64,000 nucleotides of DNA, from NCBI GenBank assembly GCA_028285945.1, contig JAPYNE010000009.1:19585-83584 (forward strand), read 5' to 3'. Source of the stretch: Gammaproteobacteria bacterium. GTDB taxonomy: Bacteria; Pseudomonadota; Gammaproteobacteria; Steroidobacterales; Foliamicaceae. Positions 12,229 through 54,806 of the stretch are shown one piece after another; positions within the stretch are counted from its first letter, which is position 1; every line of letters starts with the position of its first letter. The notes beneath the pieces are model-generated. The model was not told where the DNA came from and ran no database searches. It was given only the letters and a program-made list of their open reading frames with translations. The position numbers and the translations under genes were made by a program.

Positions 12229-12309
12229 CTGGAAGGTTCATCCAGTAACGGACTTACCTTAACCTAACATGGTAGTATTGTCATCTACTCGTACTACACG
12301 GAAGCGCCG

Positions 12310-13245
12310 ATGCGGAGAGGGCCGCTCTACCGAGAAAGTTATCGTCCGCGCCTTTCAGGACACGAGACTTTTCCTCTACGCTACGGATGGCTTAAGAAGG
12401 CGTTCGACGCTGTCGAAGATTCCCCTCACGAAACAAGCGCCAAATCCGTTTTCTTGGCAGACGATGCCATTGCCCGCTTCGGCGTGGGCAAGAACATGGT
12501 GGCGTCCATTCGCCATTGGGCCAATGCAACGGGCGTACTTGATGAAGACGGATGCTTGAACGGGCGCGCAACAACGCCGATCGGGAATCTGCTTTTCGGC
12601 AGGAACGGGATCGACCCCTATTTTGAGCATCCGGCCACCGCATGGCTTATTCATTGGCAGCTTGCCGGCCGCTCGCGAAAAACAACATGGCATTGGGCCT
12701 TCAATTACTACCCGTCCATCTTTTTTGACCGGGAGCAACTCGCTTCAGGCTTGCTGAGCCTTGCGCGGGATCGCGGATGGTCGCGGGCGGCGCCCGCCAC
12801 GGTAAAAGCAGATGTGGCGTGTTTCATTAGAACCTATGTTTCCATGCCGCCATCCGGCAAGGCGAGCCATGAGGATGTCCTTGAGTCCCCGCTTACAGAA
12901 CTGGGCTTGGTGAAACCTGTGGGCAAGCGGGACGGGTTCCGATTTGTGCGCGGGAACAAACCCTCCTTGGGCCATGGTGTGTTTTGCTGCGCCATTACGG
13001 ACTTTTGGTCGCAGTTTTCCGCTGCGCGAACCCTCTCACTGGAGGCAATCGCTCACGAACCCGGTTCGCCTGGCCGGGTGTTTTTGCTTGACGAGAACAG
13101 TTTGGCGGAGCGCCTAGTGCATCTTGAGGAATCGAGCAATGGCCTTTACCGATGGTCGGAGACTGCCGGCCTCAAGCAGCTTGAGCGAACAGGCAAACTG
13201 AGCGCGAGCGATGCCTTGGAATTTGTCTTAAGGGACTACCCCTGA
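12310..13245 (+). CDS. sspB: DUF4007-family protein, SspB-like
   Basis: N-terminal LSGHETFPLRYGWLKKAFD is the DUF4007 hallmark. The gene sits immediately upstream of the large ATPase and the PAPS-reductase-like gene. Confidence 0.75.
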   Translation: MRRGPLYRESYRPRLSGHETFPLRYGWLKKAFDAVEDSPHETSAKSVFLADDAIARFGVGKNMVASIRHWANATGVLDEDGCLNGRATTPIGNLLFGRNGIDPYFEHPATAWLIHWQLAGRSRKTTWHWAFNYYPSIFFDREQLASGLLSLARDRGWSRAAPATVKADVACFIRTYVSMPPSGKASHEDVLESPLTELGLVKPVGKRDGFRFVRGNKPSLGHGVFCCAITDFWSQFSAARTLSLEAIAHEPGSPGRVFLLDENSLAERLVHLEESSNGLYRWSETAGLKQLERTGKLSASDALEFVLRDYP

Positions 13246-13270
13246 TGCGAAATAAGGAGATTCGAGACTA

Positions 13271-16663: not shown

Positions 16664-16665
16664 AA

Positions 16666-17502
16666 ATGGTAAAGGCCGAACGACATGTCTTGGGATTGTC
16701 GGGCGGGCGCGACAGTGCTGCGCTTGCCGTGTACATGAGGGAAAACCACCCCGAACTCGATATTGAGTATTTCTTTACCGACACCGGCAAAGAACTCCCC
16801 GAGGTCTATGAGTATCTTGTGAAACTCGAAGGGTTTCTGGGCAAACCCATCCTAAGGCTGAATCCAGATCGGGACTTTGACTTCTGGCTCAAGCAGTACA
16901 ACGACTTTCTCCCCTCGCCCCAGACACGCTGGTGTACTCGACAGCTCAAGTTGAGGCCATTCGAGCAATGGGTGCGCCCCATGCTCGACGAAGGAGCACG
17001 CGTTTACAGCTACGTCGCCATCCGTGCCGACGAGCAATACCGGCAAGGCTATTCTTCAAAGCAGGACGATTTGCAGGTTCGCCTGCCGCTAAAGGAAGCG
17101 GGGATCGACAAGGCAGGCGTGCTGGAAATTCTCGAAGGCACGGGTCTTGGCCTGCCTTCCTATTATGAATGGCGCACCCGCAGCGGCTGCACCTTCTGCT
17201 TCTTCCAGCAGAAGATCGAATGGGTGAGGCTGCGCGAGCGCCACCCTGAGTGTTTTCAGGAAGCGAAGGATTATGAAAAAAACGCCTTGGAACACGGATC
17301 GCCATTTACTTGGAGCCAAGGCGAGTCGCTTCATGAATTGGAGCAGCCGGAACGCTTGGAAGAGATACGAAAGGATCACGAGTTGCGGCTTGTCCGCAGT
17401 AAAGCTAGGTCTCAACCTAATCCATTAAGACCCAATTCCGAGCCTTTAGATATTGATGATGTATACGGCAAAGCTAAAGTTTGTCTTGCCTGCCACAAGT
17501 AA
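16666..17502 (+). CDS. sspD: PAPS-reductase/PP-loop ATP pyrophosphatase, SspD (DndC-like)
   Basis: PP-loop LGLSGGRDSAALAV; Cys motifs RSGCTFCFF and C-terminal CLACHK. Starts 2 nt after the sspC stop. Confidence 0.8.
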   Translation: MVKAERHVLGLSGGRDSAALAVYMRENHPELDIEYFFTDTGKELPEVYEYLVKLEGFLGKPILRLNPDRDFDFWLKQYNDFLPSPQTRWCTRQLKLRPFEQWVRPMLDEGARVYSYVAIRADEQYRQGYSSKQDDLQVRLPLKEAGIDKAGVLEILEGTGLGLPSYYEWRTRSGCTFCFFQQKIEWVRLRERHPECFQEAKDYEKNALEHGSPFTWSQGESLHELEQPERLEEIRKDHELRLVRSKARSQPNPLRPNSEPLDIDDVYGKAKVCLACHK

Positions 17503-17576
17503 GCGACTAATACCTATGCAGATGCCGGAGACTAGATTCTACTCAATGGAAACAATAGCCATGCGAGTCAAATGCT

Positions 17577-19961: not shown

Positions 19962-21692
19962 ATGCTCACGAAGATCACTATTCGCAACTTCAAGCGCTTC
20001 GGCGAGGTTGAGGTTGAACTGGGCAGCCCGGTGGTGTTCATCGGGCCGAATAATTCGGGCAAGACCTCCGCGATGCAGGCGCTGGCTTTGTGGGACATTG
20101 GCCTGAAGCGCTGGAACGAGAAGCGTTCGGGCAAGAGCGCGCCGGAGCGGCGGCCGGGAGTGACCGTTAACCGGAGGGATTTGCTGGCTATTCCTGTTCC
20201 CAGCGCGTCGCTTTTATGGCGGGCGCTTCGGGTGCGGAATGTGCGGCGAGCGAACGGGCGGCCGCACACCGAGAATGTGCGCCTCGACCTGGTCGTTGAG
20301 GGTGTGACTGCCGATAAGGCCTAGTCTTGCGGCCTGGAATTCGACTACGCCAACGAGGAATCCTTCTACTGCCGTCCGCTGCGGTTGTCCCAAGGAAAGA
20401 CGCCGGACCGCATGCCCATTCCGGAAGCGGCGAGGGCGGCCCAAATCGTTTTCCTGCCACCCATGTCCGGTCTGGCGGCCACCGAAACGCGGCTCGATCA
20501 GGGGGCGGTGAACGTGCGGATCGGCGAAGGGCGCACGGCGGAAGTGCTGCGGAATCTCTGCCTGCGGATTAACGACGAAACCCCCGAGCTGTGGCAACGG
20601 CTGGCGGCGCAAATCAGAGAACTTTTCGTCGTTGAGCTTGACGAGCCGCGCTATATCTCCGAGCGGGGCGAAATCGTGATGGCCTATCGCGAAGAGGGGA
20701 CGAAGCTGGACCTGTCCTCAAGCGGCCGGGGATTGCAGCAAACCCTTCTCATGCTGGCCTACATGTGCGCCAACCCCGGCGCGATCATCCTGCTCGACGA
20801 GCCGGACGCGCACCTCGAAATTCTCCGCCAGCGCCAGATCTACAAGCTCATCACCGATGTCGCGCTGGAAAACGGCAATCAAATCATTGCGGCAAGCCAT
20901 TCCGAGGTGCTTCTGAACGAAGCGGCCAGCCGCGACATGGTCATAGCTTTCGTGGGCCAGCCGCATCGCTTGCAGGATCGGCCCAGCCAAGTCCATAAGG
21001 CGCTCAGCGAGATCGGATTCGACCAGTACTATCAAGCCGCGCAGGCAGGCTGGGTGCTGTATCTGGAAGGCGCATCGGATTTGGCGATATTGCAGTCTTT
21101 CGCCGAGCGCCTGGGCAATGAGGCGGCGTTGCAGGCGTTGCAGCGCCCATTTGTGCGCTATGTGGGCAACCAGCCGAGGGCGGCGGCGCAGCACTTCTAC
21201 GGTTTGCGGGAGGTGCTTCCGGAGCTTTCCGGCGTGGCGCTGTTTGATCGTCTCGACAGTGAGCCGGAGCCGGACGGCGCCTTGCAATGCATGATGTGGA
21301 AACGACGGGAAATCGAGAACTATTTGTGCTCGCGGGCAACGCTCGAAGCCTATGCCATCGCCTCGGCGCGAGTGGATGAGCCGGCGCCGCTGTTCTCGGA
21401 CATGGAAAAAGACAGGCGCCTGTCGGCTATGCGGGAAGCGGTCGCCGAGGTTGAGGAAGCCATGAGCACACTCGGCAAAGGTTCGCCTTGGGATTCGCAA
21501 GTGAAGGCAAGCGATGACTTTCTCATCCCGCTCTTCAAAACCTACTTCGCAAAACTCGAATTGCCGAACCTCATGGACAAGAAGCAGTTCTATGAGCTTG
21601 CGGCGCACGTGCCGGAGGAGAAGCTCGCCCCGGAAATCAACGAAAAATTGGACAAGATCGCAGACGTGTCCGCCTCAGCACCGTCCATGTAG
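19962..21692 (+). pseudogene. ABC-type ATPase fused to a DUF4435/Toprim-like C-terminal domain, interrupted by one in-frame TAG (20322-20324)
   Basis: ORFs 19962-20324 and 20385-21692 are in the same frame. Walker A GPNNSGKT lies upstream of the stop. Downstream are signature-like SSSGRGLQQTLLML, Walker B IILLDEPDAHL, H-loop IAASHSE, then YLEGASDLAIL ... LFDRLD ... WKRREIENYL. Confidence 0.75.
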
Positions 21693-39030: not shown

Positions 39031-39273
39031 TCCCGCCCGCTCCCGGTAGGCCTTGGGCTGAAACGGTCATAATCTCGGCCCTGAGACCGGCAAGCCTGCT
39101 TGGGTTTGTGTCTCTCCTGCTGATGTCGGCAATGCACACTACGATTGTTTGGAGCAGCCAGACTGCACGTTTTCTCTGCACAACGGTCGATTCGACTACT
39201 CCGCCATGCAAGAAATCGGCTCTCGACCGCCCGTAGAAGCAGTCGCAGCCACAAAGAACAGAGGAGGCCTTGA

Positions 39274-40806
39274 ATGATCCTAGGCGACGCGCTTGAACGG
39301 CTCCTGCAAGACGTAACAGCGCCCTTTGTTACTGAGTTATTCCTCTACCTGCTGCTCAGCTTGTTTGTTACGGCGCTATGGTGCCTTCGGAAGAACCGTG
39401 CCGTGCGCTTCACAAGCTGGGCTCCCACGCTGCTTACCTCGGTTGGCATTCTTGGTACTTTCGTGGGTGTCGTAGTGGGGTTGCTTGACTTCGACCCCAA
39501 TCCAAATCGTCTTGCGGAGAGCACCGGGGAATTGCTCGAGGGCTTGAAGACGGCTTTCGTGAGCAGCATAGCCGGCATGTTTGGCGGCGTTCTGTTCCGC
39601 CTTGTCTCCTTTGCCTCGTGGATGCAGCCCGAGCAACAAGAGCATTCCGACAACGTGAGTTCGGGTGACATCCTCCGTGCTTTGCGCGATCAGTCGCAGC
39701 TTCTCGAAGCGGTGCGAGATGTAATTGGCGGCACCGAAGAGTCTAGCTTGGCAGGGCAGATCAAGCTGTTTCGCACCGACATGGCGGACATGCACCGCGA
39801 GAATCGAACAGCGAGAGCCGAGTTGCTCGCCGATCTTCGCACACGGCTCGACAAATTCGCCGATCAGCTTTCGAAGTCCGCCACAGAGCAAGTGATTCAG
39901 GCGCTTGAGCAGGTGATCCGGCAGTTCAACGAGAACCTGACCGAACAGTTCGGCGATAACTTTAAGGCACTGAACACTTCGGTTCAGAAACTCGTTGAAT
40001 GGCAGGAAAAGTACCGCGAACAACTTCAGCAGCTGCACCAGCTTTACGAGCAATCGGCAAAATCAATTACCACTATCGAAGCGGCTACTGCGAAAGTGGC
40101 CGAATCATCGGCCTCAATTCCAGACTCTATGGCAGGTTTGACCACCATCATGCAAACCGCCAATCATCAAGTCACTGAGTTGGAGCGGCATCTCGAAGCA
40201 TTCCAAGAGCTTCGCAACCATGCGATTGAAGCGCTCCCACAGGTACGGGAGCATGTGAAGAAGGCGACCGATGGCATGTCTGCAATGGTTACTTCTCTTG
40301 GGGAGCAGCAAAGGGAACTGCTGAGCCAGTCGGAGAGTTACGCGCAGCAGCAAAGCCAGTTGGCGCTTCAGCTGCTTGAATCCCAGAGGGAGGCTGTCAA
40401 GCAAGCTGAGAATTCGTTCGCTGAGGCTGGCAATGCGATTCAGAGTGCTGCGAGCGAGGCGCAAAAGCGGGTTGCGGAAACCAGCCAGAAAGCCAGCGAT
40501 GCCATGCAAGGCGCACTGAACGGCATTGTCGAAACCCAAGAGCGGGTAACGAAGGAATCGATGGAAAGTCTTGTGTCGCAGCTAAGCGAAGCGTCCAGCC
40601 GCACTGCTGAACAAATCAACCGGCAGATGCAGACGCAGTCTGAAGCAATGGGTAAGGAAGTCGAGCGCGTCTTACAGGAGTTGGGTCAGTACCTTGGCCA
40701 GATTTCTGGCAAGTTTGTTGAGGACTATAAGAAGTACGCAGAGGCCATGGAAAACTTTGTGAGGGAGACAAGGTCCCCATACGGTAGGTCGCCTAACAAC
40801 CCATGA
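39274..40806 (+). CDS. zorA: MotA/ExbB-like membrane protein with a ~390-aa coiled-coil tail (ZorA-like)
   Basis: RBS GAGGAGG. Three N-terminal TM helices including the MotA/ExbB-type GLKTAFVSSIAGMFGGVLF, then a long Q/E/L-rich heptad region to the C-terminus. Confidence 0.7.
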   Translation: MILGDALERLLQDVTAPFVTELFLYLLLSLFVTALWCLRKNRAVRFTSWAPTLLTSVGILGTFVGVVVGLLDFDPNPNRLAESTGELLEGLKTAFVSSIAGMFGGVLFRLVSFASWMQPEQQEHSDNVSSGDILRALRDQSQLLEAVRDVIGGTEESSLAGQIKLFRTDMADMHRENRTARAELLADLRTRLDKFADQLSKSATEQVIQALEQVIRQFNENLTEQFGDNFKALNTSVQKLVEWQEKYREQLQQLHQLYEQSAKSITTIEAATAKVAESSASIPDSMAGLTTIMQTANHQVTELERHLEAFQELRNHAIEALPQVREHVKKATDGMSAMVTSLGEQQRELLSQSESYAQQQSQLALQLLESQREAVKQAENSFAEAGNAIQSAASEAQKRVAETSQKASDAMQGALNGIVETQERVTKESMESLVSQLSEASSRTAEQINRQMQTQSEAMGKEVERVLQELGQYLGQISGKFVEDYKKYAEAMENFVRETRSPYGRSPNNP

Positions 40807-41492
40807 TGGCGAATATGGAGCGATTTATCGGGCCTCGCGGTCGCGGTGAGGGTGAGCATTGGCTTACCGTGTCCGACCTGATGGCGGGCCTGATGATGGT
40901 GTTTTTGTTCATTGCTGTTTCGCTTATGCGCAGTGCATTCGAGGTGGCGGTGGACTATAGAGATAGTCGTATGGCAATCAACGATGCTCTGGAGAAGGAA
41001 TTCCGGGACGACTTGGAAAGATGGGATGCTGATATCAATACAGATCGCCTTTCCTTCGAATTCACGGGTCCTGATGTGCTTTTTGAGGCTGGCAGTGAAG
41101 TTATGAGGCCGCGCTTCGAGGAAATTCTGGAGGACTTCTTTCCTCGGTATGTCAAAACGCTCTCTGAGTTCCTGGATTCCATTGAGGAGATACGGGTGGA
41201 AGGCCATACTTCCAGCGAATGGCGTAATCTGCCGCCCGAGGAGGCGTACTTCAACAACATGCGGCTATCTCAGGGCCGGACGCGCTCCGTGCTTCGTCAT
41301 GTTGTGGAGCTGCCTGAAGTTTTCAAACATCGCGATTGGATCAAGAGGCACATGGTGGCCGTGGGGTATTCGTCCTCACAGCTCAAGACGACCCCCGGAT
41401 CAAACCAAGAGGAAAAGGACGCCTCGCGCCGTGTGGAGTTTCGGGTCTTGACGAATGCGGATACCCAGATTCGCAGAATCATCGAGCAATGA
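40803..41492 (+). CDS. zorB: MotB/OmpA-like stator partner (ZorB-like)
   Basis: ATGA overlap with zorA. TM with the conserved Asp (WLTVSDLMAGLMMVFLFIAV). OmpA-like C-domain: RVEGHTSS...NMRLSQGRTRSV...AVGYSSSQ...ASRRVEFRV. Confidence 0.75.
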   Translation: MMANMERFIGPRGRGEGEHWLTVSDLMAGLMMVFLFIAVSLMRSAFEVAVDYRDSRMAINDALEKEFRDDLERWDADINTDRLSFEFTGPDVLFEAGSEVMRPRFEEILEDFFPRYVKTLSEFLDSIEEIRVEGHTSSEWRNLPPEEAYFNNMRLSQGRTRSVLRHVVELPEVFKHRDWIKRHMVAVGYSSSQLKTTPGSNQEEKDASRRVEFRVLTNADTQIRRIIEQ

Positions 41493-42676
41493 GACCGGAA
41501 GTGCGGCTTGAAGTGGATTTGTCTCCGCTGCGTGATGCAGTACGCCGCATGGGAGCACACCGCCATGACGTGAAGCCAGTCGTACGTCGCAATCCCGCGC
41601 CACTGGCACCCATCGATATTCAGCTGGATGAGGGAATTGAACTATCAACGGATGAGGTTCATTTTTCGAGTGGGCTTGTCAGCCATAAGGGGCATCAGGT
41701 TTTGCTTTACATCCAAGATCATGGAACGAAAGTAGAAGATGTGCTGGAAGACGGAAGCCGAGGTAATAAGTTTCACCTTGCCAATTGCGTAACGCTGCAA
41801 AATATGCGGAGCAAGAACAGATTCGGTCGCTATGTCGTGACCAACAGGTTGGACGGTCATTTCTATATTACCGGTCGGGATCGTGAAACCGGAAAACATG
41901 TTGAAAGCAAGAAAGCGCGGCTTGACGTGTGCAAGAACTGCCTCTCTTACTTGAATTACGAAGGGTATGAAAGCGCAAAGGAGTCGGGTTATGCGAGCTA
42001 TGAAAAACGAACCCAAATCTTCGAACGCTTCGACCTAGCTAGGTTCTTCGAGAACTACAGTTCATTTTTTGCTCATATGCCGAGGCGCTTTTCGGGAGAG
42101 TTTGACGGCGATTACACTGGAGATTGGGCGGAAGTATCGAAAAGAGTCAGGCGTGACCTCGATTTTGTTTGCGAAATCTGCCGGACCAGCCTCAAGGACG
42201 AACCCCGTCTTTGCCACACGCATCACAGGAACGGTGTGAAGACAGACAACAGGCCATCCAATCTGCAGGTCCTATGCGCTGACTGTCACCGGAAGCAGCC
42301 TATGCATGAGCACATGCATGTTTTGCACAAGGACATGCGCAAGCTCGCGGAGCTGCGGCGAGAGCAGGGAACCAACAGGGTGTGTAGTCGGGATGAAGTA
42401 TTCAAGTTATCCGACCCCGGCGTGCATGGAGCGTTTCATTACATTTGCCCCGAATTCGGCTTGCCTGAGGTTGGATATTTCTTTTCCGTTGGCGGCGGGC
42501 AAGACTGCTATTTGGAGCTAGCATGGCCTAACAAAAATTACGGAATATGTATTTCCGAGGAAGCTAGGCGGCAAGCACAACTGAAACTGATCGATTGGAA
42601 GGTGGAATTGCCCAATGAGATTACTGCACGGGAAGACGACTTACGCCATCGGAACCAAACACGCGGCAGGCACTGA
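41489..42676 (+). CDS. zorE: HNH endonuclease-domain effector (ZorE-like)
   Basis: ATGA overlap with zorB. HNH motif FVCEICRTSL...LCHTHHRNGVKTDNRPSNLQVLCADCHRKQ. Start moved from the ORF-track 41336 to ATG 41489. Confidence 0.7.
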   Translation: MRPEVRLEVDLSPLRDAVRRMGAHRHDVKPVVRRNPAPLAPIDIQLDEGIELSTDEVHFSSGLVSHKGHQVLLYIQDHGTKVEDVLEDGSRGNKFHLANCVTLQNMRSKNRFGRYVVTNRLDGHFYITGRDRETGKHVESKKARLDVCKNCLSYLNYEGYESAKESGYASYEKRTQIFERFDLARFFENYSSFFAHMPRRFSGEFDGDYTGDWAEVSKRVRRDLDFVCEICRTSLKDEPRLCHTHHRNGVKTDNRPSNLQVLCADCHRKQPMHEHMHVLHKDMRKLAELRREQGTNRVCSRDEVFKLSDPGVHGAFHYICPEFGLPEVGYFFSVGGGQDCYLELAWPNKNYGICISEEARRQAQLKLIDWKVELPNEITAREDDLRHRNQTRGRH

Positions 42677-42834: not shown

Positions 42835-43119
42835 TTAACGGTCGGTTTGCACCAGCCCTATTGTTAGCCGTGTTCCGGTTGCTTGGGCGTAGCGCCGCAG
42901 GGTTGCGAAGGATGGCGAAACCTTGCCGCCCTCCAAGCGGGCGATGGCGGACTGGGTGGTGCCAATTCGCCGGGCTAGTTCCGCCTGCGTCAGATTCGCG
43001 GCCGCCCGCGCCCGAACGAGAGCCTCGACCAGCGCGAACTCCTCGTCGGCGCGCGCGTACTCCTCGCGAAAGGCCGGATCCTGCATGAACCGGTCTTTTA
43101 GCTCTTTCAGTCTGGTCAT
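42835..43119 (-). CDS. higA: XRE-family HTH antitoxin (HigA-like)
   Basis: MTRLKELKDRFMQDPAFREEY...LTQAELARRIGTTQSAIARLEGGK. The start at 43117-43119 overlaps the toxin stop (ATGA). Confidence 0.8.
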   Translation of the reverse strand: MTRLKELKDRFMQDPAFREEYARADEEFALVEALVRARAAANLTQAELARRIGTTQSAIARLEGGKVSPSFATLRRYAQATGTRLTIGLVQTDR

Positions 43120-43430
43120 GTCGTCACCTGTCTCATTCGCTCCATGGCGGTCGCCAGCGCACGGCGCGGCGTCTTGCGCGTTTTCTTCGCAAACACATGC
43201 AGCACCACCAGCCTTCTTCCCGCCATCGTCAAGTGGATTCCGCGAGCTACGCCCTCCTTGGCTTTTACTCGAAGCTCCCACAGCTTGCCTTCGAGATGCC
43301 GCCCATGCGGCGCACGAAGCGCTTCCAGCCCAACGTTTTCCACAGCCTCTAGCAGCCGGGCGCGCAAAGCGGGGGGAAGCGCCTGAATTTCTGCATCGGC
43401 TGCCGAAAACGTCTCAACCTTCCATGGCAT
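43116..43430 (-). CDS. higB: RelE/ParE-superfamily toxin (HigB / Gp49-like)
   Basis: 104 aa: ...GKLWELRVKAKEGVARGIHLTMAGRRLVVLHVFAKKTRKTP, typical of Gp49/HigB-type toxins located upstream of their antitoxin. Confidence 0.75.
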   Translation of the reverse strand: MPWKVETFSAADAEIQALPPALRARLLEAVENVGLEALRAPHGRHLEGKLWELRVKAKEGVARGIHLTMAGRRLVVLHVFAKKTRKTPRRALATAMERMRQVTT

Positions 43431-43729: not shown

Positions 43730-44281
43730 ATGAGAATCAACAATCACCGATGGGCGGCGCTGGCGGTTGCTGCGCTGATTCTGGCGGGCTGCGGGCCTTC
43801 GGAGGAAGAGAAGCTCGTAGATGCTTGTACCGCGAAGTCGGTAGGGATGAAGGCGACCGTGCTGCCACTGCACTGGGCGATAGGGGACGGCAACGTGGAT
43901 TCTGTGCGGGCGCTGATTGAAGCGGGGGCTGACGTGAATGCGAAGGACGTTAGAGGAGCAACGGCGCTTCACCAGGCGGCGTATGGAAACAATGCGGCGG
44001 TAGCGGCGCTCTTGATTGAAGCGGGGGCTGACGTGAATGCGAAGAACGTTAGGGGAGCAACGGCGCTTCACCAGGCGGCGTATGGAAACAATGTGGCGGT
44101 AGCGGCGCTCTTGATTGAAGCGGGGGCTGACGTGAATGCTGTTGCGACGTTGGGGGCATCCCGAACGCGGGAACTGGCGATACGAGGATGGCGAGGAACG
44201 CCGCTGGAACTGGCGGCGGTGAGAGGCCATGCGGAGGTAGAGAAGCTGCTTCGGGAAGCGGCCGCGCCGGCGGTGGGATAA
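43730..44281 (+). CDS. ankyrin-repeat lipoprotein
   Basis: Lipobox LAVAALILAGC. Repeated LIEAGADVNAK.VRGATALHQAAYGNN.AVAALL ankyrin units. Confidence 0.8.
   Translation: MRINNHRWAALAVAALILAGCGPSEEEKLVDACTAKSVGMKATVLPLHWAIGDGNVDSVRALIEAGADVNAKDVRGATALHQAAYGNNAAVAALLIEAGADVNAKNVRGATALHQAAYGNNVAVAALLIEAGADVNAVATLGASRTRELAIRGWRGTPLELAAVRGHAEVEKLLREAAAPAVG
43913..44139 (+). repeat. 99-bp tandem repeat (2.3 copies) inside the ankyrin gene
   Basis: Units 43913-44011 and 44012-44110 differ at about 4 positions. A third, partial unit spans 44111-44139. Confidence 0.85.
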
Positions 44282-47909: not shown

Positions 47910-48044
47910 ATGACCGTGCTGCTGGACACGAATGTGGTGTCCGAAATGCCGCGCCCGCTGCCAAATCCGGCAGTGGCCACGCGCAACGTCCGGGACTTCG
48001 AGGGCATGGGCATCGAAGTCATCAATCCTTGGACGGCCGGGTGA
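47910..48044 (+). pseudogene. vapC: vapC/fitB PIN-toxin remnant with a large in-frame internal deletion
   Basis: The 44-aa product MTVLLDTNVVSEMPRPLPNPAV|ATRNVRDFEGMGIEVINPWTAG joins the PIN N-terminus directly to the C-terminal TRNxxDF...INPW motif. Confidence 0.65.
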
Positions 48045-50185
48045 GCGGCACGACCGAAGCGTTCGCGCGGGTCAAGATCGACGCGCTGCTCAAGGATGCG
48101 GGCTGGGACCTGACCGATGGCTCAAGTGTCCTGTTCGAGCACGCGCTGCCGGACGGCACGCAGGCCGACTACGTGCTCTGCGACCGGCAGGGCCGCCCGA
48201 TGGCGGCGCTGGAGGCCAAGCGCGCGAGCGTTGATCCCATTGCGGCGCAGGACCAGGGGCGGCGCTACGCCGAGCAGCTCGGCGTGCCGTTCGTGTTCCT
48301 TTCGAACGGCGAGGAAGTGCGGTTCCTTGACCGCCAGGCCGATGCCCATGCGCGCAGGATCGCGGGCTTTTACGCGCAGGACGATCTTGAACGGCGAATC
48401 GCCGCCCGCCGGGTGCGTCGCGACCTGTCCAAGGTTGCCATCGACCGGAAGGTCGTTGACCGAGACTACCAGATCGAATGCGTCGAGGCGCTGTGCGCCG
48501 AAGTCTCCAGCGGTCGGCGCAAGCTGCTGGTCGAGATGGCCACCGGAACCGGCAAGACGCGCATGGCGGCGGCTTTCATCAAGCGGCTGTTCGAGGCGGG
48601 CATCGTCACCCGCGTGCTGTTTCTCGTTGACCGCATCGCCCTGGCCCGGCAAGCCGAGGACGCCTTCACCGACCATCTGCGGGACTACCCCTGCCACGTT
48701 CTGCGGCCCGGCCGCGGCTTCGACCGCGCCAAGCGCGTGACGATAGCGACGCTGCAAACCATGGTCGCGGAGTACCGCGGCCTTTCCCCGGGCTACTTCG
48801 ATCTGGTCGTCACCGACGAATGCCACCGCTCGATCTACGGCAAGTGGAGCGGCGCGCTGCGGCATTTCGACGGCATCCAGCTCGGCCTCACGGCCACGCC
48901 CTGCACGGCGGACGCGGACGCGCCGCCCGATCCCGAGGACGGGAAGTTCGTGCGCGACACCCTCCGGTTCTTCGAGCTTGCCGAGCCCACCTACCGCTAC
49001 ACGCTGCCGCAGGCCATCGAGGAGGGCCACCTCGCGCCCTACCGCATCTACAAGGCGATGACGGTCAAGACCGCCGCCGAGGGCGGGTTCGAGGTCCGCC
49101 GCGGCGATCTCGACTGGAGCGCGATGGACAACAGGACGCGGGACGAGTTCGAGGCGCTGTTCGCCGGTTCGGAGACGATCGCAATGGATCCGAACGCCTT
49201 GGAGCGCAAGTTCACCGTGCCCGAACGCAACCGCGCCTTAGTACGGGAGTTCCGCGATGTGCTCGAAAAGGGCTTCACGGGCGGGGACGGCGTGCGGCGC
49301 TGGCCCGCTTGGGGCAAGACCATCGTGTTCGCGGTCACCAAGCGCCACGCCGAGACGCTGGCGGAGATGTTCGACGAGCGCTTCGCGGACAGGAAGCCGC
49401 ATCCGTCCACGCGCTACGCGGACTTCGTGGTGAGCGACCTGGGCGGCGGCCCCGCGCCCGACGCAAGCGCCGTCATCAAGCGCTTCAAGGACGAGGACTT
49501 CCCGAAGATCCTCGTGAGCGTGAACATGCTGGACACGGGTTTCGATTGCCCGGAAGTCGTTAATCTCGTGATGGCGCGGTTCACCCGCAGCGCGATTCTC
49601 TACCGGCAGATGCGCGGACGCGGCACGCGCAAGGCGCCGCACATCCGCAAGCACGACTTCACGATCTTCGACTTTGCGGGCGTGGCCGATTTCCACGGCG
49701 ACGACGAAAGCGAGATCAAGGGCGGGCCGGTCCGCGAGGTTGACCGGCCGGGCCGCCCTTCCGACCCCCGCATGCTGCTGACCTTGGATGTGGACGACCA
49801 CATCGATCCGGCGAGCCGCGAGTGGCTGACTCTGGACGAGAACGGCCGGATCGCGCGCGCGGCGGAGCACGAGGCGCGCGCCTGCGAGGTGGGCGTGCGC
49901 TTCGAGGCATGGCGGGGAGAGCAGGAGGATTTCAATGCGGAGCAGGCGCGCTGGGCGGGGCTGATCGGCAGCCGCGTGAAGGCGGACGCGATGGGCATGG
50001 ACGCGTTCGGCGAATGGAATTTCGACGAGCATCCCTTCGCCGCCCTCGGCGGCTACGACCAGGCGCGCCGCGTGTTCGGCGGCGGGCAATCCCTCGACCG
50101 GCTGATCGCCGGGTTCAACGCCGCGGTGTTCGGCCAGGGGCAGGCGGCGCGCAATGCCGGAAGCGGCCCCGCCGGAGAGGGCTAG
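48041..50185 (+). CDS. hsdR: type I restriction enzyme R subunit (EcoEI-like)
   Basis: N-terminal nuclease-like domain (KIDALLKDAGW...ADYVL), helicase motif I MATGTGKT, motif II VVTDECH, LGLTATP, and a C-terminal EcoEI_R_C-like tail. GTG 48041 overlaps the vapC-remnant stop; TTG 48029 is an alternative start. Confidence 0.85.
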   Translation: MSGTTEAFARVKIDALLKDAGWDLTDGSSVLFEHALPDGTQADYVLCDRQGRPMAALEAKRASVDPIAAQDQGRRYAEQLGVPFVFLSNGEEVRFLDRQADAHARRIAGFYAQDDLERRIAARRVRRDLSKVAIDRKVVDRDYQIECVEALCAEVSSGRRKLLVEMATGTGKTRMAAAFIKRLFEAGIVTRVLFLVDRIALARQAEDAFTDHLRDYPCHVLRPGRGFDRAKRVTIATLQTMVAEYRGLSPGYFDLVVTDECHRSIYGKWSGALRHFDGIQLGLTATPCTADADAPPDPEDGKFVRDTLRFFELAEPTYRYTLPQAIEEGHLAPYRIYKAMTVKTAAEGGFEVRRGDLDWSAMDNRTRDEFEALFAGSETIAMDPNALERKFTVPERNRALVREFRDVLEKGFTGGDGVRRWPAWGKTIVFAVTKRHAETLAEMFDERFADRKPHPSTRYADFVVSDLGGGPAPDASAVIKRFKDEDFPKILVSVNMLDTGFDCPEVVNLVMARFTRSAILYRQMRGRGTRKAPHIRKHDFTIFDFAGVADFHGDDESEIKGGPVREVDRPGRPSDPRMLLTLDVDDHIDPASREWLTLDENGRIARAAEHEARACEVGVRFEAWRGEQEDFNAEQARWAGLIGSRVKADAMGMDAFGEWNFDEHPFAALGGYDQARRVFGGGQSLDRLIAGFNAAVFGQGQAARNAGSGPAGEG

Positions 50186-50189
50186 CAGC

Positions 50190-51818
50190 ATGCCCATGAC
50201 GCCCGAGCTGCGGCGCGGCATCGACCGCATCCGCGATTATCTGTTCGGCGGCGGCTACCCGAACCCGGCCCAGAACGCCGAGCAGCTCAGCTTCCTGATC
50301 TATTTCTACATGCACGAGGCTGCGGACGCGGCGCGAGCTCGCGCGGCGCAGCGGCCAGGCGCCGCGCCCCACGTCGGCGCGTACGAAGGCGAATGGAGCC
50401 TGCGCGACCCGCGCAATGCCAGCGAACCGGATGCGGCCGCCGTGCCGCGCGGGCTTCTGCGCTGGTCGTCCTGGGCGCACGCGCTGAACGGGGAGCGGCT
50501 GGTCAACTGGGTGCGCGAAGAGGTCTTTCCATTCCATGCCGAGCTGGCGGCGGGCGGCGTGACGGACTTCATGGACGGCGCCCGGCTGGTGATCGACGAG
50601 CCGACCGTGCTCACCCAAGTGGTGAGCCAGTTGAGCGATCTGCGTCTCGACCGGGTGGATGCGGACACGAAGGGCGACTTGTTCGAGCATGTGCTGCGCC
50701 AGATCCGGAAGGCGGGCGAGCTCGGCCAGTTCCGAACGCCGCGCCATGTCATCCGCGCCCTGGTGCGGCTGGTCGATCCCCGGATCGGCGAGACCATCTA
50801 CGACCCGGCCGCCGGAACGGCCGGCTTCCTGGCCGCCGCGTGGGACCATATCCGGCTCGCCAACTCCTCGCCCGACGGGATTGAGGAGGTCAAGGCGGAT
50901 GGCAAGACCGTCCAGCGGGGCCTCGGCGACATGCTGAGCCGCGGCGCCGTGAAACAATTGCGCGAAGCGACCTTCTACGGCGCCGACGTGGATCCTCAGA
51001 TGGTCCGCCTCGCCACCATGAACCTGACTTTGCGGGGGCTGGACCGGGTGAGGATCCTGAGGCGCGACGCGCTGACCCGCTCCCTCGACCGGGCGGCCAA
51101 GGCGGAACTCGGCTTTCCGGCGCGCGGCTTCGACGTGATCCTCGCCAATCCCCCATTCTCCGGCCGGCTGGACAAGGACCGCATCGTCGAGGACGTGAGG
51201 ATCGGCCGCACGGCGCAAACCGAACTGCTGTTCCTGCAATACATGCTCAACCACCTTGTGGATGGCGGGCGCTGCGGCGTGGTCGTGCCTGAGGGCGTGC
51301 TTTTCGGCGGCAGCGGCGCGCATAAGGAATTGAGGCGCAAGCTGATCGAGAACAACACCGTCGAAGCCGTGCTGTCGCTGCCGGGCGGCGTGTTCAACCC
51401 CTATTCCGGCGTCAAAACCTCGGTGCTGGTCTTCCGCAAGGGCGGCGCGACCGAGCGCGTGATGTTCCTGAACGCCGGCAACGACGGCTTCAAGCTCGAC
51501 GCCAACCACGACCAGCCCATCGACGAGGACGACCTGCCCGGCCTGATCGAGGCGTTCCGCGACCGGGAGGCAAGGTGGCGCGCATGGCAGGACCGTGATG
51601 CGAAGGCCGACTGGACTGAAAAGTGGTGGTTCGCGGATGCCGACGCGATCCGCGCCGCCGACCTCAACCTCAGCGCCAACCGCCACCGCCCACAGAGCCG
51701 CGCAAAGGCGGAGCATCGCGATCCGCTGGAAATCCTGGAGGAGTTGCGGGCTATCGAAACGGAGATACTCGGCGAAATCGACGCGCTAGCCGAAGCTGTT
51801 AGTGGAGCCGGCTCGTGA
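50190..51818 (+). CDS. hsdM: type I R-M N6-adenine DNA methyltransferase subunit
   Basis: HsdM N-domain (IRDYLFGGGYPNPAQNAEQLSFLI), SAM motif IYDPAAGTAGFL, catalytic ILANPPFSG. Start moved to ATG 50190. Confidence 0.9.
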   Translation: MPMTPELRRGIDRIRDYLFGGGYPNPAQNAEQLSFLIYFYMHEAADAARARAAQRPGAAPHVGAYEGEWSLRDPRNASEPDAAAVPRGLLRWSSWAHALNGERLVNWVREEVFPFHAELAAGGVTDFMDGARLVIDEPTVLTQVVSQLSDLRLDRVDADTKGDLFEHVLRQIRKAGELGQFRTPRHVIRALVRLVDPRIGETIYDPAAGTAGFLAAAWDHIRLANSSPDGIEEVKADGKTVQRGLGDMLSRGAVKQLREATFYGADVDPQMVRLATMNLTLRGLDRVRILRRDALTRSLDRAAKAELGFPARGFDVILANPPFSGRLDKDRIVEDVRIGRTAQTELLFLQYMLNHLVDGGRCGVVVPEGVLFGGSGAHKELRRKLIENNTVEAVLSLPGGVFNPYSGVKTSVLVFRKGGATERVMFLNAGNDGFKLDANHDQPIDEDDLPGLIEAFRDREARWRAWQDRDAKADWTEKWWFADADAIRAADLNLSANRHRPQSRAKAEHRDPLEILEELRAIETEILGEIDALAEAVSGAGS

Positions 51819-53095
51819 AGCCGCAACCTGTAAAGCATATGCCCCTTGGCGAAGTGGCCGATGTGATTCGCGGCGTCACTTTTAGGAAGTCGGACGCCGC
51901 TGACTCTCCTGCGTCAGATCGAACGCCAGTGCTGCGAGCAGGAAATATCGGCAAGGACCTGGATTTAGACAATGGTCTTGTATGGGTGCCGAGTGATCTT
52001 GTGCTTCAAAAGCAACGTACGTTGCGAGGCGACATCGTGATGTGTGCATCATCGGGTAGTTCGGTTGTTGTGGGCAAAAGCGCTCCTCTTCGGCAACAGT
52101 GGAACGGAACGATCGGGGCATTTTGCATCGTCATTCGACCCAAATCGAAAGCTTGCGATCCCGGATTTCTTGGATTTTTTCTTGGGAGTCCTCATTTTCG
52201 CCAATGGGCGTCACAGGCTCCCGGAGCCAACATAAAAAACATCCGCAAGAGTGATTTGCAGCAGTACCTTGTTCCCCTCCCGCCTCTCGACGAGCAGCGG
52301 CGGATCGTCGCCATCCTGAACCGGGCGGCGAAGATCGAGCGGCTGAAGAAGCAAGCGCAGGAGCGGCTGCGGGAATTCATCCCCGCGCTTTTCGTCAAAA
52401 TGTTCGGCGATCCGGCCGGGAACCCTATGGGGTGGCCTGTTCTCTCTCTCGGTGAACTGTCGGTAATTGGTCCTCAGTACGGAGCCAATGCCCGGTCGAA
52501 AACGCTCTTGTCAGGCGAACCACGTTATGTGCGCATCACTGATATACAAGAAGGAGGAGGGTTGTCAGACGAAGCCGTCGGAGTGCCGCTTCCGAACTGG
52601 GAGAAGTATCGGCTCCGCGATGGAGACCTTCTTTTTGCACGAAGCGGCGCTACTGTAGGAAAGCCATACATTTATCGACCGCAAGACGGGCTTTGTGTTT
52701 TTGCGGGGTATCTGATTCGCTTCCGGCTGGAGGCAACTAAACTTCATCCTGAAGTCTTATTTGGGCTGACCCAGACTTATGCCTATAGCGCGTGGGTCAA
52801 GAGTAAACGACGTACAGTTGCACAACCGAATATCAACGGTCGGGAATTTGCCACACTGAGAATCCCGGTGCCTCCGCGAAGGCTTCAAAATCAGTACGTC
52901 CAAATGGTCGAAGCGGCGCGTTCCACCGCTGCCTTGGCAGACTCCGGCGTTGCAGTTAGCTCGGCGCTAAACATGTCACTCATGCCCCAACTGCTGCAAA
53001 ACCAAAGCCCGTCAATGCAATATCATCCGAGCCAAATGGACATGTCGCTGAGCTTAAGGCAGAGCGGCGGGCCAGCTAGTGGAGAAGAGAAATGA
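51815..53095 (+). CDS. hsdS: type I R-M specificity subunit
   Basis: Two target-recognition domains separated by the conserved helix LPPLDEQRRIVAILNRAAKIERLKKQAQERL, with a second conserved helix near the C-terminus. The GTG start overlaps the hsdM stop (GTGA). Confidence 0.85.
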   Translation: MKPQPVKHMPLGEVADVIRGVTFRKSDAADSPASDRTPVLRAGNIGKDLDLDNGLVWVPSDLVLQKQRTLRGDIVMCASSGSSVVVGKSAPLRQQWNGTIGAFCIVIRPKSKACDPGFLGFFLGSPHFRQWASQAPGANIKNIRKSDLQQYLVPLPPLDEQRRIVAILNRAAKIERLKKQAQERLREFIPALFVKMFGDPAGNPMGWPVLSLGELSVIGPQYGANARSKTLLSGEPRYVRITDIQEGGGLSDEAVGVPLPNWEKYRLRDGDLLFARSGATVGKPYIYRPQDGLCVFAGYLIRFRLEATKLHPEVLFGLTQTYAYSAWVKSKRRTVAQPNINGREFATLRIPVPPRRLQNQYVQMVEAARSTAALADSGVAVSSALNMSLMPQLLQNQSPSMQYHPSQMDMSLSLRQSGGPASGEEK

Positions 53096-54147
53096 TTCAC
53101 TTGAGTAGCTTTACGGCAGTTAGGTACCGTGGAATTGATGGATTGTCGGTGCCTAAACTGACGAGGGCTAATCTTTTCACAGGAGTGAATGGCATCGGCA
53201 AAACGGCATTGCTCGAAGCCATATGGCTTTTCACAGGAAGGTACAACCCTGGTCTGTTGTGGAACGCTAACGTGCAGCGTTCTGGGGGGCCGCTTGTGGA
53301 CCCCCTTTCCCGGCTAACGCATGACAAGCTGGAGCTTCGCGGGATGGAGAACGGCGAAGATCGTTGCCTCAGTTATGTTTTTGAGAAAATCAACGGTTCT
53401 GTTGATCGGGCGCCAGCTGCCCATCCCCTGCGGGAAGACATTGCCAATTTGCCGCCAGTTGTTGGCCTAATCCGCGCTTACCTAGATGGCAAGCCCTTAG
53501 AAGAGGATTCTAGAGGCCTGCATGTAACTCCCTCTGGAGCGGTGCTGCATCAATCCGGCGAGATGGCTTCCGAACGTCCCAGCTGTGTCATCGAGAACAC
53601 AAGATTCCATAATGAAGTTCCACTCGAGTATTTGCAGAGATATTCCGATCTGGTAAGGGAAGGCCAAAAAGCCGAGTTAGTAGGCGCAGTCAATATGGTT
53701 GTTGAGGGAATCGAAGACTTGGAGATTTTGACCGAAGACAGCGGTGGGACATACCTCTCGGTAGTGATGAGGCATGGGAAGCCGCGGTCGATTCATGATC
53801 TGGGAGGTGGAGCAGTCAGGCTGGCTAGGCTGCTGCTTGGTTTTTCTGCATCCCGGAACGGCATTTTCCTATCGGATGAGATGGAGAACGGTATCCATTA
53901 CCGCGCCCAACGGTCAATTTGGGATAGAGCGCGAGAATGGATGACTCAATGGAATGTGCAATTTGTAGCCACCACCCACAGTGGTGAACTGGTCAATGCA
54001 GCGATCGAAGCGTTTGCGGAAAAGGCTGCGGATGATCTCTCGATACACCAAATCTTCCAAAACGACAGGACAGGACAGTTGGAGATTGCGACTTTTACCG
54101 GCGAGTCACTCGCGGGCGCACGAGACCTCAACCTGGAGGTCCGTTGA
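53092..54147 (+). CDS. ABC/SMC-type AAA ATPase (AAA_21-like; AriA/AbiLi/RloA-like)
   Basis: Walker A GVNGIGKT, signature-like LGGGAVRLARLLL, Walker B IFLSDEMENGIH, H-loop VATTHS. ATGA overlap with the hsdS stop. Confidence 0.8.
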   Translation: MIHLSSFTAVRYRGIDGLSVPKLTRANLFTGVNGIGKTALLEAIWLFTGRYNPGLLWNANVQRSGGPLVDPLSRLTHDKLELRGMENGEDRCLSYVFEKINGSVDRAPAAHPLREDIANLPPVVGLIRAYLDGKPLEEDSRGLHVTPSGAVLHQSGEMASERPSCVIENTRFHNEVPLEYLQRYSDLVREGQKAELVGAVNMVVEGIEDLEILTEDSGGTYLSVVMRHGKPRSIHDLGGGAVRLARLLLGFSASRNGIFLSDEMENGIHYRAQRSIWDRAREWMTQWNVQFVATTHSGELVNAAIEAFAEKAADDLSIHQIFQNDRTGQLEIATFTGESLAGARDLNLEVR

Positions 54148-54806
54148 TGCGGCCCTCTGACGATGGTTATTCCCAGAAACCCGAAGGCGGATTGAGAATT
54201 CAATCCGACCGGTTGCTGCTGGTTGAAGGCCGAGACGAAGTCAATTTTCTGTCTGTTTTGATCCGCGAGTGCATTGGCGAGGATGCAGGTGTTCAGCTGA
54301 TCGACGCAGGTGGAAAGGACCAATTCGCTACAAATCTAGAAGCGATACGAATCTCGGCAAAAACTCGCCCGACCTTGGGTTTCATCGGTGTTATTCGGGA
54401 CGCGGACGATGATGCACGAGGTGCCTTTGAGAGCGTGCGTAGCGCGCTTCGCAAGGTTGGATACGAATCCCCAAGCTCCCATGGAAACTTTTCGGACTCG
54501 TCTCCTTCCATTGGCATTTTCATTGTTCCGGACGGAGTGAGCAGCGGTGCCATTGAAACCTTGTGCCGCCGGTCTGTGGAAAATTCCGCTGCGGGTAGAT
54601 GCGTAAACATGTATCTCGATTGCCTCGTTGAGCACAACGCCATGGAATCATCGAACAAGGATAAAAGTTTTTCGCACGCATACTTGGCTTCCATGCGTAA
54701 TCCGGTGGCCAGAGTTGGAGAAGGCGCGTTGGGCGGTGCTTGGAATTTCGATTCCCCTGTGTTTCGAGACATCCTAGACTTCATTCGCACGCTCCAATCC
54801 CAATAA
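54147..54806 (+). CDS. Toprim-like small protein (DUF3226/DUF4435/RloB-type)
   Basis: LLLVEGRDEVNFL (Toprim Glu), GVIRDADDD (DxD), IFIVPDG...GAIETLC. The ATG shares 1 nt with the ATPase TGA. Confidence 0.65.
   Translation: MRPSDDGYSQKPEGGLRIQSDRLLLVEGRDEVNFLSVLIRECIGEDAGVQLIDAGGKDQFATNLEAIRISAKTRPTLGFIGVIRDADDDARGAFESVRSALRKVGYESPSSHGNFSDSSPSIGIFIVPDGVSSGAIETLCRRSVENSAAGRCVNMYLDCLVEHNAMESSNKDKSFSHAYLASMRNPVARVGEGALGGAWNFDSPVFRDILDFIRTLQSQ

What the first reader, a model, noticed from the sequence alone, without database searches (positions are those of the whole stretch)
39274..42676. Three-gene MotA-like / MotB-like / HNH cluster: type II Zorya-like system
All three genes are coupled by ATGA overlaps (40803-40806, 41489-41492) and sit in a sharply AT-richer block. 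Gene 1 has 3 N-terminal TM helices with a MotA/ExbB-type GLKTAFVSSIAGMFGG helix, followed by ~390 aa of uninterrupted coiled coil. Gene 2 has the MotB plug/TM with the conserved Asp (SDLMAGLMMVF) and an OmpA-like peptidoglycan-binding domain. Gene 3 carries an HNH motif. Established: ZorA-ZorB-ZorE is the definition of type II Zorya. Mechanistic work has concentrated on type I (ZorCD), so how a ZorAB stator licenses an HNH nuclease remains poorly understood. That makes a compact example such as this experimentally attractive.
Basis: partly seen in the sequence, partly recalled or inferred. Interest (0 to 1): 0.6.

Follow-up and report, generated by a model that had tools for sequence, protein, structure and literature searches.

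The report
Canonical type II Zorya defence operon
This is an intact but ordinary zorA-zorB-zorE (type II Zorya) anti-phage operon in an uncultured marine gammaproteobacterium, a system whose core structure and nuclease effector have been described since 2025.

Summary
Three + strand ORFs (39274-40806, 40803-41492, 41489-42676) are joined by two ATGA overlaps. They lie in a block with 53% GC, against 62% for the whole window.

The interpretation also holds. PADLOC models call the genes ZorA2 (3.7e-137), ZorB2 (1.3e-85) and ZorE2 (7.3e-126). ZorA and ZorB match the solved type II ZorA5B2 complex (PDB 8vvi). ZorE keeps every HNH and zinc-site residue that mutagenesis of E. coli ZorE showed to matter. 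Seven related loci all have zorA-zorB-zorE adjacent and in this order.

- Generic Pfam models barely see the domains. MotA_ExbB gives no hit, and OmpA and HNH score below their curated cut-offs.
- The tail is not strictly uninterrupted.
- Type II is no longer unstudied. A cryo-EM core structure exists, and ZorE nickase activity, its recruitment to the membrane on infection, and synergy with Druantia III have been published.

The only mildly notable feature is that ZorE is the long form, with a C-terminal domain of about 100 aa. Structure prediction and fold search place this domain weakly but consistently with Vsr/DUF559-type restriction-endonuclease folds. No Druantia III lies in the window.

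Verdict: a new, divergent member of a known kind, of low interest.

The parts
39263..39267 (+). Shine-Dalgarno-like GGAGG, 6 nt upstream of the zorA ATG
   Evidence: Read directly from the sequence. No convincing sigma-70 promoter match was found in the 244-nt upstream spacer.
39274..40806 (+). zorA (510 aa): type II ZorA, the MotA/ExbB-like motor subunit with a long cytoplasmic tail
   Evidence: PADLOC ZorA2 PDLC00640 3.7e-137. NCBIfam NF041792 8e-104. PDB 8vvi_F 9.3e-33.
39310..39615 (+). ZorA transmembrane core, aa 13-114: three hydrophobic helices including the GTFVG (T62) and GLKTAFVSS (T93, S97) motifs
   Evidence: Hydropathy segments 13-40, 49-75 and 93-114. The motifs are conserved in the alignment to S. 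kujiense ZorA.
39631..40803 (+). ZorA cytoplasmic tail, aa about 120-510: helical, E/A/Q/L-rich, about 100-130 aa longer than in S. kujiense ZorA
   Evidence: Composition and heptad scan. The alignment to 8vvi_F skips query residues 334-431.
40803..41492 (+). zorB (229 aa): type II ZorB, with one TM helix carrying D25 (codon 40875-40877) and an OmpA-like peptidoglycan-binding domain (aa about 93-215)
   Evidence: PADLOC ZorB2 1.3e-85. PDB 8vvi_A 4.3e-48, with D25 aligned to SkZorB D21, and NxxLSxxR and RRVEF conserved. Pfam OmpA 23.7 bits, below the cut-off.
41489..42676 (+). zorE (395 aa): long-form ZorE effector
   Evidence: PADLOC ZorE2 PDLC00645 7.3e-126 over residues 6-379. NCBIfam NF041791 6e-90. 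255 homologues, all carrying PF26739/DUF8245.
41489..42088 (+). ZorE N-terminal DUF8245 region, aa about 1-200, with an invariant H96/C100/C148/C151 putative zinc site
   Evidence: Invariant columns in alignment A1. Precomputed PF26739 on all homologues. Domain naming follows PMC13192584.
42170..42307 (+). ZorE HNH (beta-beta-alpha-Me) nuclease motif, aa 228-273: C228, C231, H245, H246, K251, N254, N258, C263, C266, H267, H273
   Evidence: All are invariant in A1. With a +20 offset they correspond to the E. coli ZorE residues H226, K231, N234, N238, H247 and H253, whose mutation abolishes defence. Pfam HNH is weak at 17.9 bits.
42362..42643 (+). ZorE C-terminal extension, aa about 292-385: a restriction-endonuclease-like (Vsr/DUF559-like) alpha/beta domain with invariant D309, E343, W346, P347 and W370, and near-invariant H313
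   Evidence: Alignment A2. AF2 model with pLDDT 86.8 and topology a-a-b-b-b-a-b-a. Foldseek best hits are AbaSI/PvuRts1I and viral DUF559/Vsr/restriction endonucleases, all with E >= 0.035. No Pfam or PDB sequence-profile hit.

Best explanation
The locus is a complete, apparently functional type II Zorya anti-phage operon (zorA-zorB-zorE), translationally coupled and of foreign composition. It is fixed at one chromosomal site in a lineage of uncultured marine Gammaproteobacteria.

The mechanism below is inferred from homology to studied systems, not shown here:
- Five ZorA subunits surround two ZorB TM helices to form an ion-driven 5:2 inner-membrane motor.
- The ZorB OmpA-like domains anchor the motor to peptidoglycan and sense the envelope perturbation made by an injecting phage.
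- Ion flow through ZorB D25 and the ZorA Thr/Ser ring drives or rearranges the pentameric ZorA tail, roughly 385 residues per subunit.
- The activated tail recruits cytoplasmic ZorE to the membrane at the entry site. There its HNH domain nicks DNA, mainly supercoiled or partly single-stranded DNA, and so stops phage propagation.
- The C-terminal Vsr/DUF559-like domain of ZorE most likely helps to bind or position DNA, or provides an auxiliary nuclease or structure-recognition function.
For: Shown here:
- Family assignment by PADLOC and NCBIfam.
- Homology of ZorA and ZorB to the solved type II ZorA5B2 complex 8vvi, with D25 aligned to the critical D21 and the peptidoglycan-binding motifs conserved.
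- Three TM segments in ZorA and one in ZorB.
- Every ZorE residue tested by mutagenesis in E. coli is invariant across 32 homologues.
- A confident ZorE model, pLDDT 85.
- Intact ORFs with ATGA coupling.
- The A-B-E order is conserved in 7 of 7 related loci.
- The operon sits at the same site between the DUF4437 cupin gene and the amidohydrolase gene in the three relatives that include the flanks. The proteins remain full length despite 13-29% divergence, which implies purifying selection.

From the literature:
- 5:2 stoichiometry, requirement for the tail, peptidoglycan binding, ZorE nickase activity and infection-dependent membrane recruitment (PMC11890865).
- The tail as signal transmitter in type I (PMC11946911).
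Against: There is no experimental evidence for this particular locus.

NCBIfam scores fall below the equivalog cut-offs (348 against 700, 228 against 400, 302 against 600), so these are divergent members. Generic Pfam MotA_ExbB, OmpA and HNH models do not reach their curated thresholds.

No promoter or terminator consensus was found around the operon. Stoichiometry and tail structure were not modelled here.

The fold assignment of the ZorE C-terminal domain rests on non-significant Foldseek E-values (0.035-0.2), supported only by a consistent theme among the hits.
Confidence: 0.92

Rival explanations
1. Same system, different outcome. Defence works mainly as population-level or abortive immunity, because recruited ZorE nicks the host chromosome as well as phage DNA. 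Under this view it does not selectively destroy the incoming phage genome at the entry site.
For: For E. coli Zorya II, host-DNA single-strand breaks during infection and a fitness cost at high MOI were reported (PMC11890865). Nothing in ZorE here suggests sequence or modification specificity. The HNH domain and zinc sites are generic.
Against: For type I, local and direct action on phage DNA was proposed (PMC11946911). ZorE prefers supercoiled or ssDNA-containing substrates, and phage DNA was more susceptible in vitro. The question cannot be decided from sequence.
Confidence: 0.4
2. The ZorE C-terminal Vsr/DUF559-like domain is a module specialised for cooperation with Druantia III, as proposed for long-form ZorE. 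The partner system would then lie elsewhere in this genome.
For: 90% of Druantia III-associated ZorE proteins carry this extension (PMC13192584). The window ZorE has the same extension: the NCBIfam ZorE model aligns to residue 355, and the fragment alone hits model positions 274-337.
Against: No ORF longer than 1130 aa exists in the 64-kb window, and that ORF is SspC. No ORF longer than 900 aa lies within 10 kb of zorE in any of the seven related loci, so DruE is absent locally. 112 of the 120 best homologues are long form, so the extension looks like the default state of this ZorE clade and not a Druantia-specific addition.
Confidence: 0.15
3. The genes are a decaying or non-defence remnant. 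One example would be a MotAB/ExbBD-type motor used for another envelope function, with an unrelated HNH gene beside it.
For: Pfam does not recognise MotA_ExbB, and OmpA and HNH are below threshold. The flanking genes are housekeeping genes: a TonB-dependent receptor, a cupin and an amidohydrolase.
Against: All three ORFs are intact and coupled. Catalytic and ion-path residues are conserved. Zorya-specific profiles score far above the MotB profiles: 285 bits for ZorB2 against about 27 bits for MotB, whose cut-off is about 300. The three-gene linkage is conserved from this lineage to Vibrio and Grimontia.
Confidence: 0.03

Closest known systems
Type II Zorya of E. coli ATCC 8739 (ZorA2-ZorB2-ZorE; functional studies in PMC11890865 and PMC13192584)
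   Same: The gene order and three-protein composition are the same. ZorE has the same DUF8245 + HNH + C-terminal nuclease-like architecture. All tested ZorE residues (H226, K231, N234, N238/L239, H247, H253 and Y189 in E. coli numbering) are conserved with a +20 offset.
   Different: The sequences are divergent, and NCBIfam equivalog scores are about half the cut-offs. The host is an uncultured, high-GC marine gammaproteobacterium. The operon is chromosomal and fixed at a syntenic site in relatives, with no mobile-element hallmarks found around it. No Druantia III lies nearby.
Sulfuricurvum kujiense type II ZorA5B2 (PDB 8vvi)
   Same: The TM core, the ZorB Asp (D21 there, D25 here), the peptidoglycan-binding domain motifs, and the start and end of the ZorA tail all align.
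   Different: ZorA here is 510 aa against 378 aa. About 100 residues of the tail (334-431) have no counterpart. If the tail is a continuous helix bundle, it would be roughly 40% longer; this is an inference.
Type I Zorya (ZorABCD; E. coli, PDB 8qyk and related entries; PMC11946911)
   Same: A ZorAB 5:2 motor with a long ZorA tail that signals to a cytoplasmic nuclease effector.
   Different: ZorA here lacks the roughly 85-residue N-terminal offset of type I (query residue 46 aligns to chain residue 131). No ZorC or ZorD is present, and the effector is a single HNH protein. Type I PADLOC models score much lower.
Flagellar stator MotAB and the ExbBD/TolQR motors
   Same: A 5:2 ion-driven architecture, a TM aspartate on the B subunit, and an OmpA-like peptidoglycan anchor (as in MotB).
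   Different: No Pfam MotA_ExbB hit. MotB and MotS NCBIfam hits are about 25-28 bits against cut-offs of 260-300. ZorA has three predicted TM segments and a 385-aa tail that MotA does not have.

Membership tests
Zorya type II (ZorA-ZorB-ZorE) | ZorA: MotA/ExbB-like TM core followed by a long helical cytoplasmic tail | tested here: met
   PADLOC ZorA2 3.7e-137. 8vvi_F 9.3e-33. Three hydrophobic segments plus a 385-aa E/A/Q/L-rich tail.
Zorya type II (ZorA-ZorB-ZorE) | ZorB: single TM helix with the conserved Asp, plus an OmpA-like peptidoglycan-binding domain | tested here: met
   PADLOC ZorB2 1.3e-85. D25 aligns with SkZorB D21, and NxxLSxxR and RRVEF are conserved.
Zorya type II (ZorA-ZorB-ZorE) | ZorE: DUF8245 + HNH nuclease with intact catalytic and zinc residues | tested here: met
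   PADLOC ZorE2 7.3e-126. PF26739 on all homologues. Invariant H246, N258 and H267, and C228, C231, C263 and C266.
Zorya type II (ZorA-ZorB-ZorE) | The three genes are adjacent, on the same strand, in the order A-B-E, and the linkage is conserved in relatives | tested here: met
   ATGA overlaps. Seven of seven related loci have A-B-E adjacent.
Zorya type II (ZorA-ZorB-ZorE) | Absence of the type I (ZorC/ZorD) and type III (ZorF/ZorG) partners | tested here: met
   The neighbours are a cupin/DUF4437 gene, HigBA-like genes, an ankyrin gene and hydrolases. None has a Zorya hit in PADLOC.
Zorya type II (ZorA-ZorB-ZorE) | ZorA5B2 stoichiometry and a pentameric tail bundle | not tested
This is inferred from 8vvi homology only.
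Zorya type II (ZorA-ZorB-ZorE) | Confers phage resistance that depends on all three genes | not testable with these tools
   Requires an experiment.
NCBIfam equivalogs ZorA2 / ZorB2 / ZorE (E. coli-like) | Score above the curated equivalog cut-off | tested here: not met
   348 against 700, 228 against 400 and 302 against 600 bits. These are the best hits but below the cut-offs, so this is a divergent subgroup that automatic annotation would not name.
Flagellar stator MotAB | Recognition by MotA_ExbB and MotB family models at their curated thresholds | tested here: not met
   No Pfam MotA_ExbB hit. MotB and MotS models score about 25-28 bits against cut-offs of 260-300.
Druantia III-linked Zorya II island | DruE and DruH within about 20 kb of zorE | tested here: not met
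   The largest ORF in the window is SspC at 1130 aa. The 1030-aa and 845-aa ORFs have no PADLOC hit. No ORF longer than 900 aa lies in the related loci. The rest of the genome is unknown.
Vsr/DUF559-type PD-(D/E)xK nucleases (for the ZorE C-terminal domain) | An alpha-beta-beta-beta-alpha-beta core with conserved acidic residues, and significant profile or fold similarity | tested here: inconclusive
   The topology fits, and D309, E343 and H313 are conserved. Foldseek hits are thematically consistent (AbaSI, PvuRts1I, DUF559, Vsr) but all have E >= 0.035. Pfam and PDB profiles give no hit. No canonical (D/E)xK is present on strand 3.

The most novel reading that the evidence does not exclude
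In this ZorE clade the C-terminal Vsr/DUF559-like domain may be a second, catalytically active or DNA-structure-sensing nuclease module. It would work in stand-alone Zorya II without Druantia III, for example by converting HNH nicks into double-strand breaks or by directing ZorE to distorted or partly single-stranded phage DNA. That would make long-form ZorE a dual-nuclease effector.
Probability: 0.15. Interest if true: 0.45.

Novelty: new member of a known kind. Interest (0 to 1): 0.2.

Why it matters
The locus adds a divergent, environmentally derived type II Zorya to a family that is already well catalogued. Its practical value is modest.

It shows that long-form ZorE, with its restriction-endonuclease-like C-terminal domain, occurs and is maintained at a fixed chromosomal site. 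This holds across at least four related marine lineages or samples, with no Druantia III in the neighbourhood. That tempers the recent suggestion that the extension is a Druantia-synergy feature.

It also offers a natural ZorA tail-length variant (510 aa against 378 aa) for comparison with the solved S. kujiense complex. It does not open a new question.

Tried and rejected
Searches that gave weak results or none:
- Pfam on the three proteins gave only sub-threshold OmpA and HNH hits and coiled-coil noise.
- A PDB sequence search with ZorE found nothing.
- Foldseek of full-length ZorE against the PDB gave no significant match.
- Pfam and PDB profile searches with the C-terminal-domain alignment found nothing.

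Search for mobile-element boundaries around the operon:
- There is no tRNA in the window.
- No flanking direct or inverted repeats beyond chance-level 14-21-mers were found.
- Relatives carry the operon at the same site. An insertion boundary could therefore not be defined.

The promoter and terminator scan was at background level.

Readings considered and rejected:
- MotAB or ExbBD stator.
- Type I or type III Zorya.
- A pseudogenised remnant.
Full report
**Observation**

The window carries three + strand ORFs at 39274-40806 (510 aa), 40803-41492 (229 aa) and 41489-42676 (395 aa from the ATG). A GGAGG lies 6 nt before the first ATG.

GC falls to 0.50-0.57 across 39-43 kb, against 0.61-0.68 on either side. 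GC3 of the three genes is 0.64, 0.63 and 0.56, against 0.81-0.87 for the neighbouring housekeeping genes. The block therefore has clearly foreign codon usage.

Hydropathy gives three N-terminal hydrophobic segments in gene 1 (aa 13-40, 49-75, 93-114) and one in gene 2 (aa 19-51, containing D25). Gene 3 has none. The gene 1 tail of about 385 aa is rich in E, A, Q, S and L and has a heptad-like pattern. It also contains Pro283, Pro322 and several glycines, so 'uninterrupted' overstates it slightly.

**Identity**

PADLOC-DB profiles assign the proteins to ZorA2 (3.7e-137, 456 bits), ZorB2 (1.3e-85) and ZorE2 (7.3e-126, covering residues 6-379 of the 375-position long-form model). Type I and type III models score far lower.

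In NCBIfam the best hits are the type II ZorA2, ZorB2 and ZorE equivalogs. All score at roughly half their curated cut-offs. These are therefore divergent members that automatic annotation would leave as 'HNH endonuclease' or hypothetical, and the source names of homologues confirm this.

Generic Pfam models almost fail. MotA_ExbB gives no hit, OmpA scores 23.7 bits (cut-off 27.2) and HNH scores 17.9 bits (cut-off 21.4).

ZorA and ZorB match chains F and A of PDB 8vvi, the Sulfuricurvum kujiense type II ZorA5B2 cryo-EM structure, at 9.3e-33 and 4.3e-48. ZorB D25 aligns with the critical D21 of that protein. The OmpA-type NxxLSxxR and RRVEF motifs are conserved.

**ZorE in detail**

The search found 255 homologues, all carrying PF26739 (DUF8245). 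A 32-sequence alignment (A1) shows these invariant residues:
- H96, C100, C148 and C151, an N-terminal zinc site.
- Y209.
- C228, C231, H245, H246, K251, N254, N258, L259, C263, C266, H267 and H273, the HNH beta-beta-alpha-metal finger with its CCCC zinc site.

With a +20 offset these are exactly the E. coli ZorE residues Y189, H226, K231, N234, N238/L239, H247 and H253. Mutating them abolishes defence or synergy (PMC13192584). The AlphaFold2 model is confident (pLDDT 85.1, pTM 0.79). No solved relative exists by sequence or by Foldseek.

ZorE here is the long form. Residues about 292-385 form an extra domain that is homologous to the C-terminal region of E. coli ZorE: the NCBIfam model aligns up to residue 355, and the fragment alone hits model positions 274-337.

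- Modelled alone, the domain gives pLDDT 86.8 and an alpha-alpha-beta-beta-beta-alpha-beta-alpha topology.
- Its conserved residues are D309, H313, E343, W346, P347 and W370 in full-length numbering.
- Foldseek finds no significant match, but the top of both hit lists is thematically uniform.
  - In the PDB the best hits are the Vsr-like domains of AbaSI and PvuRts1I, followed by Can2 and Bax1.
  - In BFVD the best hits are DUF559, Vsr, 'restriction endonuclease' and MutH/HJR-family proteins, with a best E-value of 0.035.
- Sequence profiles find nothing.

I read the domain as a divergent Vsr/DUF559-type PD-(D/E)xK fold. Its activity is undetermined, and it has no canonical (D/E)xK on strand 3. 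This agrees with, and slightly sharpens, the statement in PMC13192584 that the region is 'nuclease-like' but unassigned.

**Linkage and context**

A scan of one genome per species found four loci encoding a ZorE relative:
- A Gammaproteobacteria MAG, CAR4_bin_12, at 79% identity.
- Vibrio mimicus.
- Grimontia indica.
- Vibrio sp. WZ-1.

In all four, zorA and zorB lie immediately upstream. Three metagenomic contigs (one TARA, one Logan, one JGI; 71-99% ZorE identity) show the same arrangement.

In the MAG and the TARA contig the operon sits at the same site as in the window. The order is TonB-dependent receptor, DUF4437 cupin, zorABE, a variable stretch, amidohydrolase, CN-hydrolase. The Logan contig reaches the upstream flank and the JGI contig the downstream flank, and both agree. 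The operon is therefore an old acquisition, now inherited vertically in this marine lineage.

Against the MAG, the Zorya proteins are more diverged (87%, 74% and 79%) than the flanking proteins (88-98%).

No tRNA, integrase signature or flanking repeats mark an island boundary.

Immediately downstream lie a HigA-like HTH gene and a Gp49/HigB-like toxin gene on the opposite strand, followed by a variable ankyrin-repeat gene.

The window is rich in defence systems overall:
- SspABCD-SspE at 11.0-19.9 kb.
- A type I R-M system at 48.0-53.1 kb.
- A PDC-M38A/B (AbiL-like) pair at 53.1-54.8 kb.

Druantia III is absent. The recent preprint links it to long-form ZorE. The largest ORF in the window is the 1130-aa SspC. 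No ORF longer than 900 aa lies within 10 kb of zorE in any related locus. 112 of the 120 best homologues are long form.

**Mechanism (inferred by homology)**

ZorA5B2 forms a peptidoglycan-anchored, ion-driven motor. Phage-induced envelope perturbation is sensed through the ZorB peptidoglycan-binding domain. Ion flow through D25 drives or rearranges the pentameric ZorA tail.

The tail recruits ZorE to the membrane. There its local concentration allows Mg/Mn-dependent nicking of supercoiled or ssDNA-containing DNA (PMC11890865; PMC11946911; PMC13192584).

It remains open in the literature whether the outcome is selective destruction of phage DNA or population-level immunity through host DNA damage. 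It cannot be decided here.

The tail is about 100-130 residues longer than in S. kujiense ZorA, but falls within the range of PADLOC ZorA2 model lengths of 420-590.

**Comparison and verdict**

Every testable defining feature of type II Zorya is met. The stator (MotAB) and type I/III alternatives fail.

Its premise that type II is mechanistically neglected has been overtaken by a 2025 cryo-EM and biochemistry paper and a 2026 preprint.

This is a new, divergent member of a known kind, with low interest. One small lead remains: the conserved Vsr/DUF559-like C-terminal domain of ZorE in a lineage with no nearby Druantia III.

Noticed in passing
window 11038-19865: A complete Ssp phosphorothioate defence system. 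It comprises SspA (11038-12228, - strand, 1.3e-131), SspB (12310-13245, 5.5e-104), SspC (13271-16663, E = 0), SspD (16666-17502, 3.6e-137) and SspE (17577-19865, 6.7e-246). GC3 is very low (SspE 0.47). An AriA/AbiL-like ATPase ORF follows at 20385-21692.
   Followed up: partly
window 48029-54806: A type I R-M system: HsdR 48029-50185, HsdM 50154-51818 and HsdS 51815-53095. A PDC-M38A/AbiLi-like ATPase (53092-54147) and PDC-M38B (54144-54806) follow directly. The whole block is absent from relative L005, which has an HTH gene plus a PIN/PhdYeFM toxin-antitoxin pair there instead. It is partly rearranged in L001. This looks like a second variable defence slot.
   Followed up: partly
window 42835-43430 (- strand): A HigA-like HTH antitoxin (148 aa) overlaps a Gp49/HigB-like toxin (104 aa) directly downstream of zorE, convergent with it. 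The pair is conserved in L001 and L007 but reduced to a 33-aa HigA remnant in L005.
   Followed up: partly
window 43730-44281: An ankyrin-repeat gene contains near-perfect 99-nt tandem repeats (43914-44139). Its copy number and sequence differ from the 99%-identical contig L007 (150 aa there, 79% identity). L001 has 2.4 kb of different genes at this spot. It gives a weak PADLOC hit to PDC-M72A.
   Followed up: no
L004 7660-20983 (Vibrio sp. WZ-1): Zorya II (zorA2-zorB2-zorE) is followed immediately by ZorA1-like (11430-14027, 2.4e-163), ZorB-like (about 14072-14536) and ZorC-like (14673-17021, 1.8e-67) genes, then a type I HsdR. This is a tandem type II plus possibly partial type I Zorya. No ZorD was seen in the DNA held.
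   Followed up: partly
window 39274-42676 vs L001 7807-11179: Between the window and the syntenic MAG, the Zorya region is 85.6% identical at the nucleotide level while the flanks are 91-93% identical. ZorB is the most diverged protein, at 74% aa identity. This is compatible with faster evolution or allelic exchange of the defence genes.
   Followed up: no
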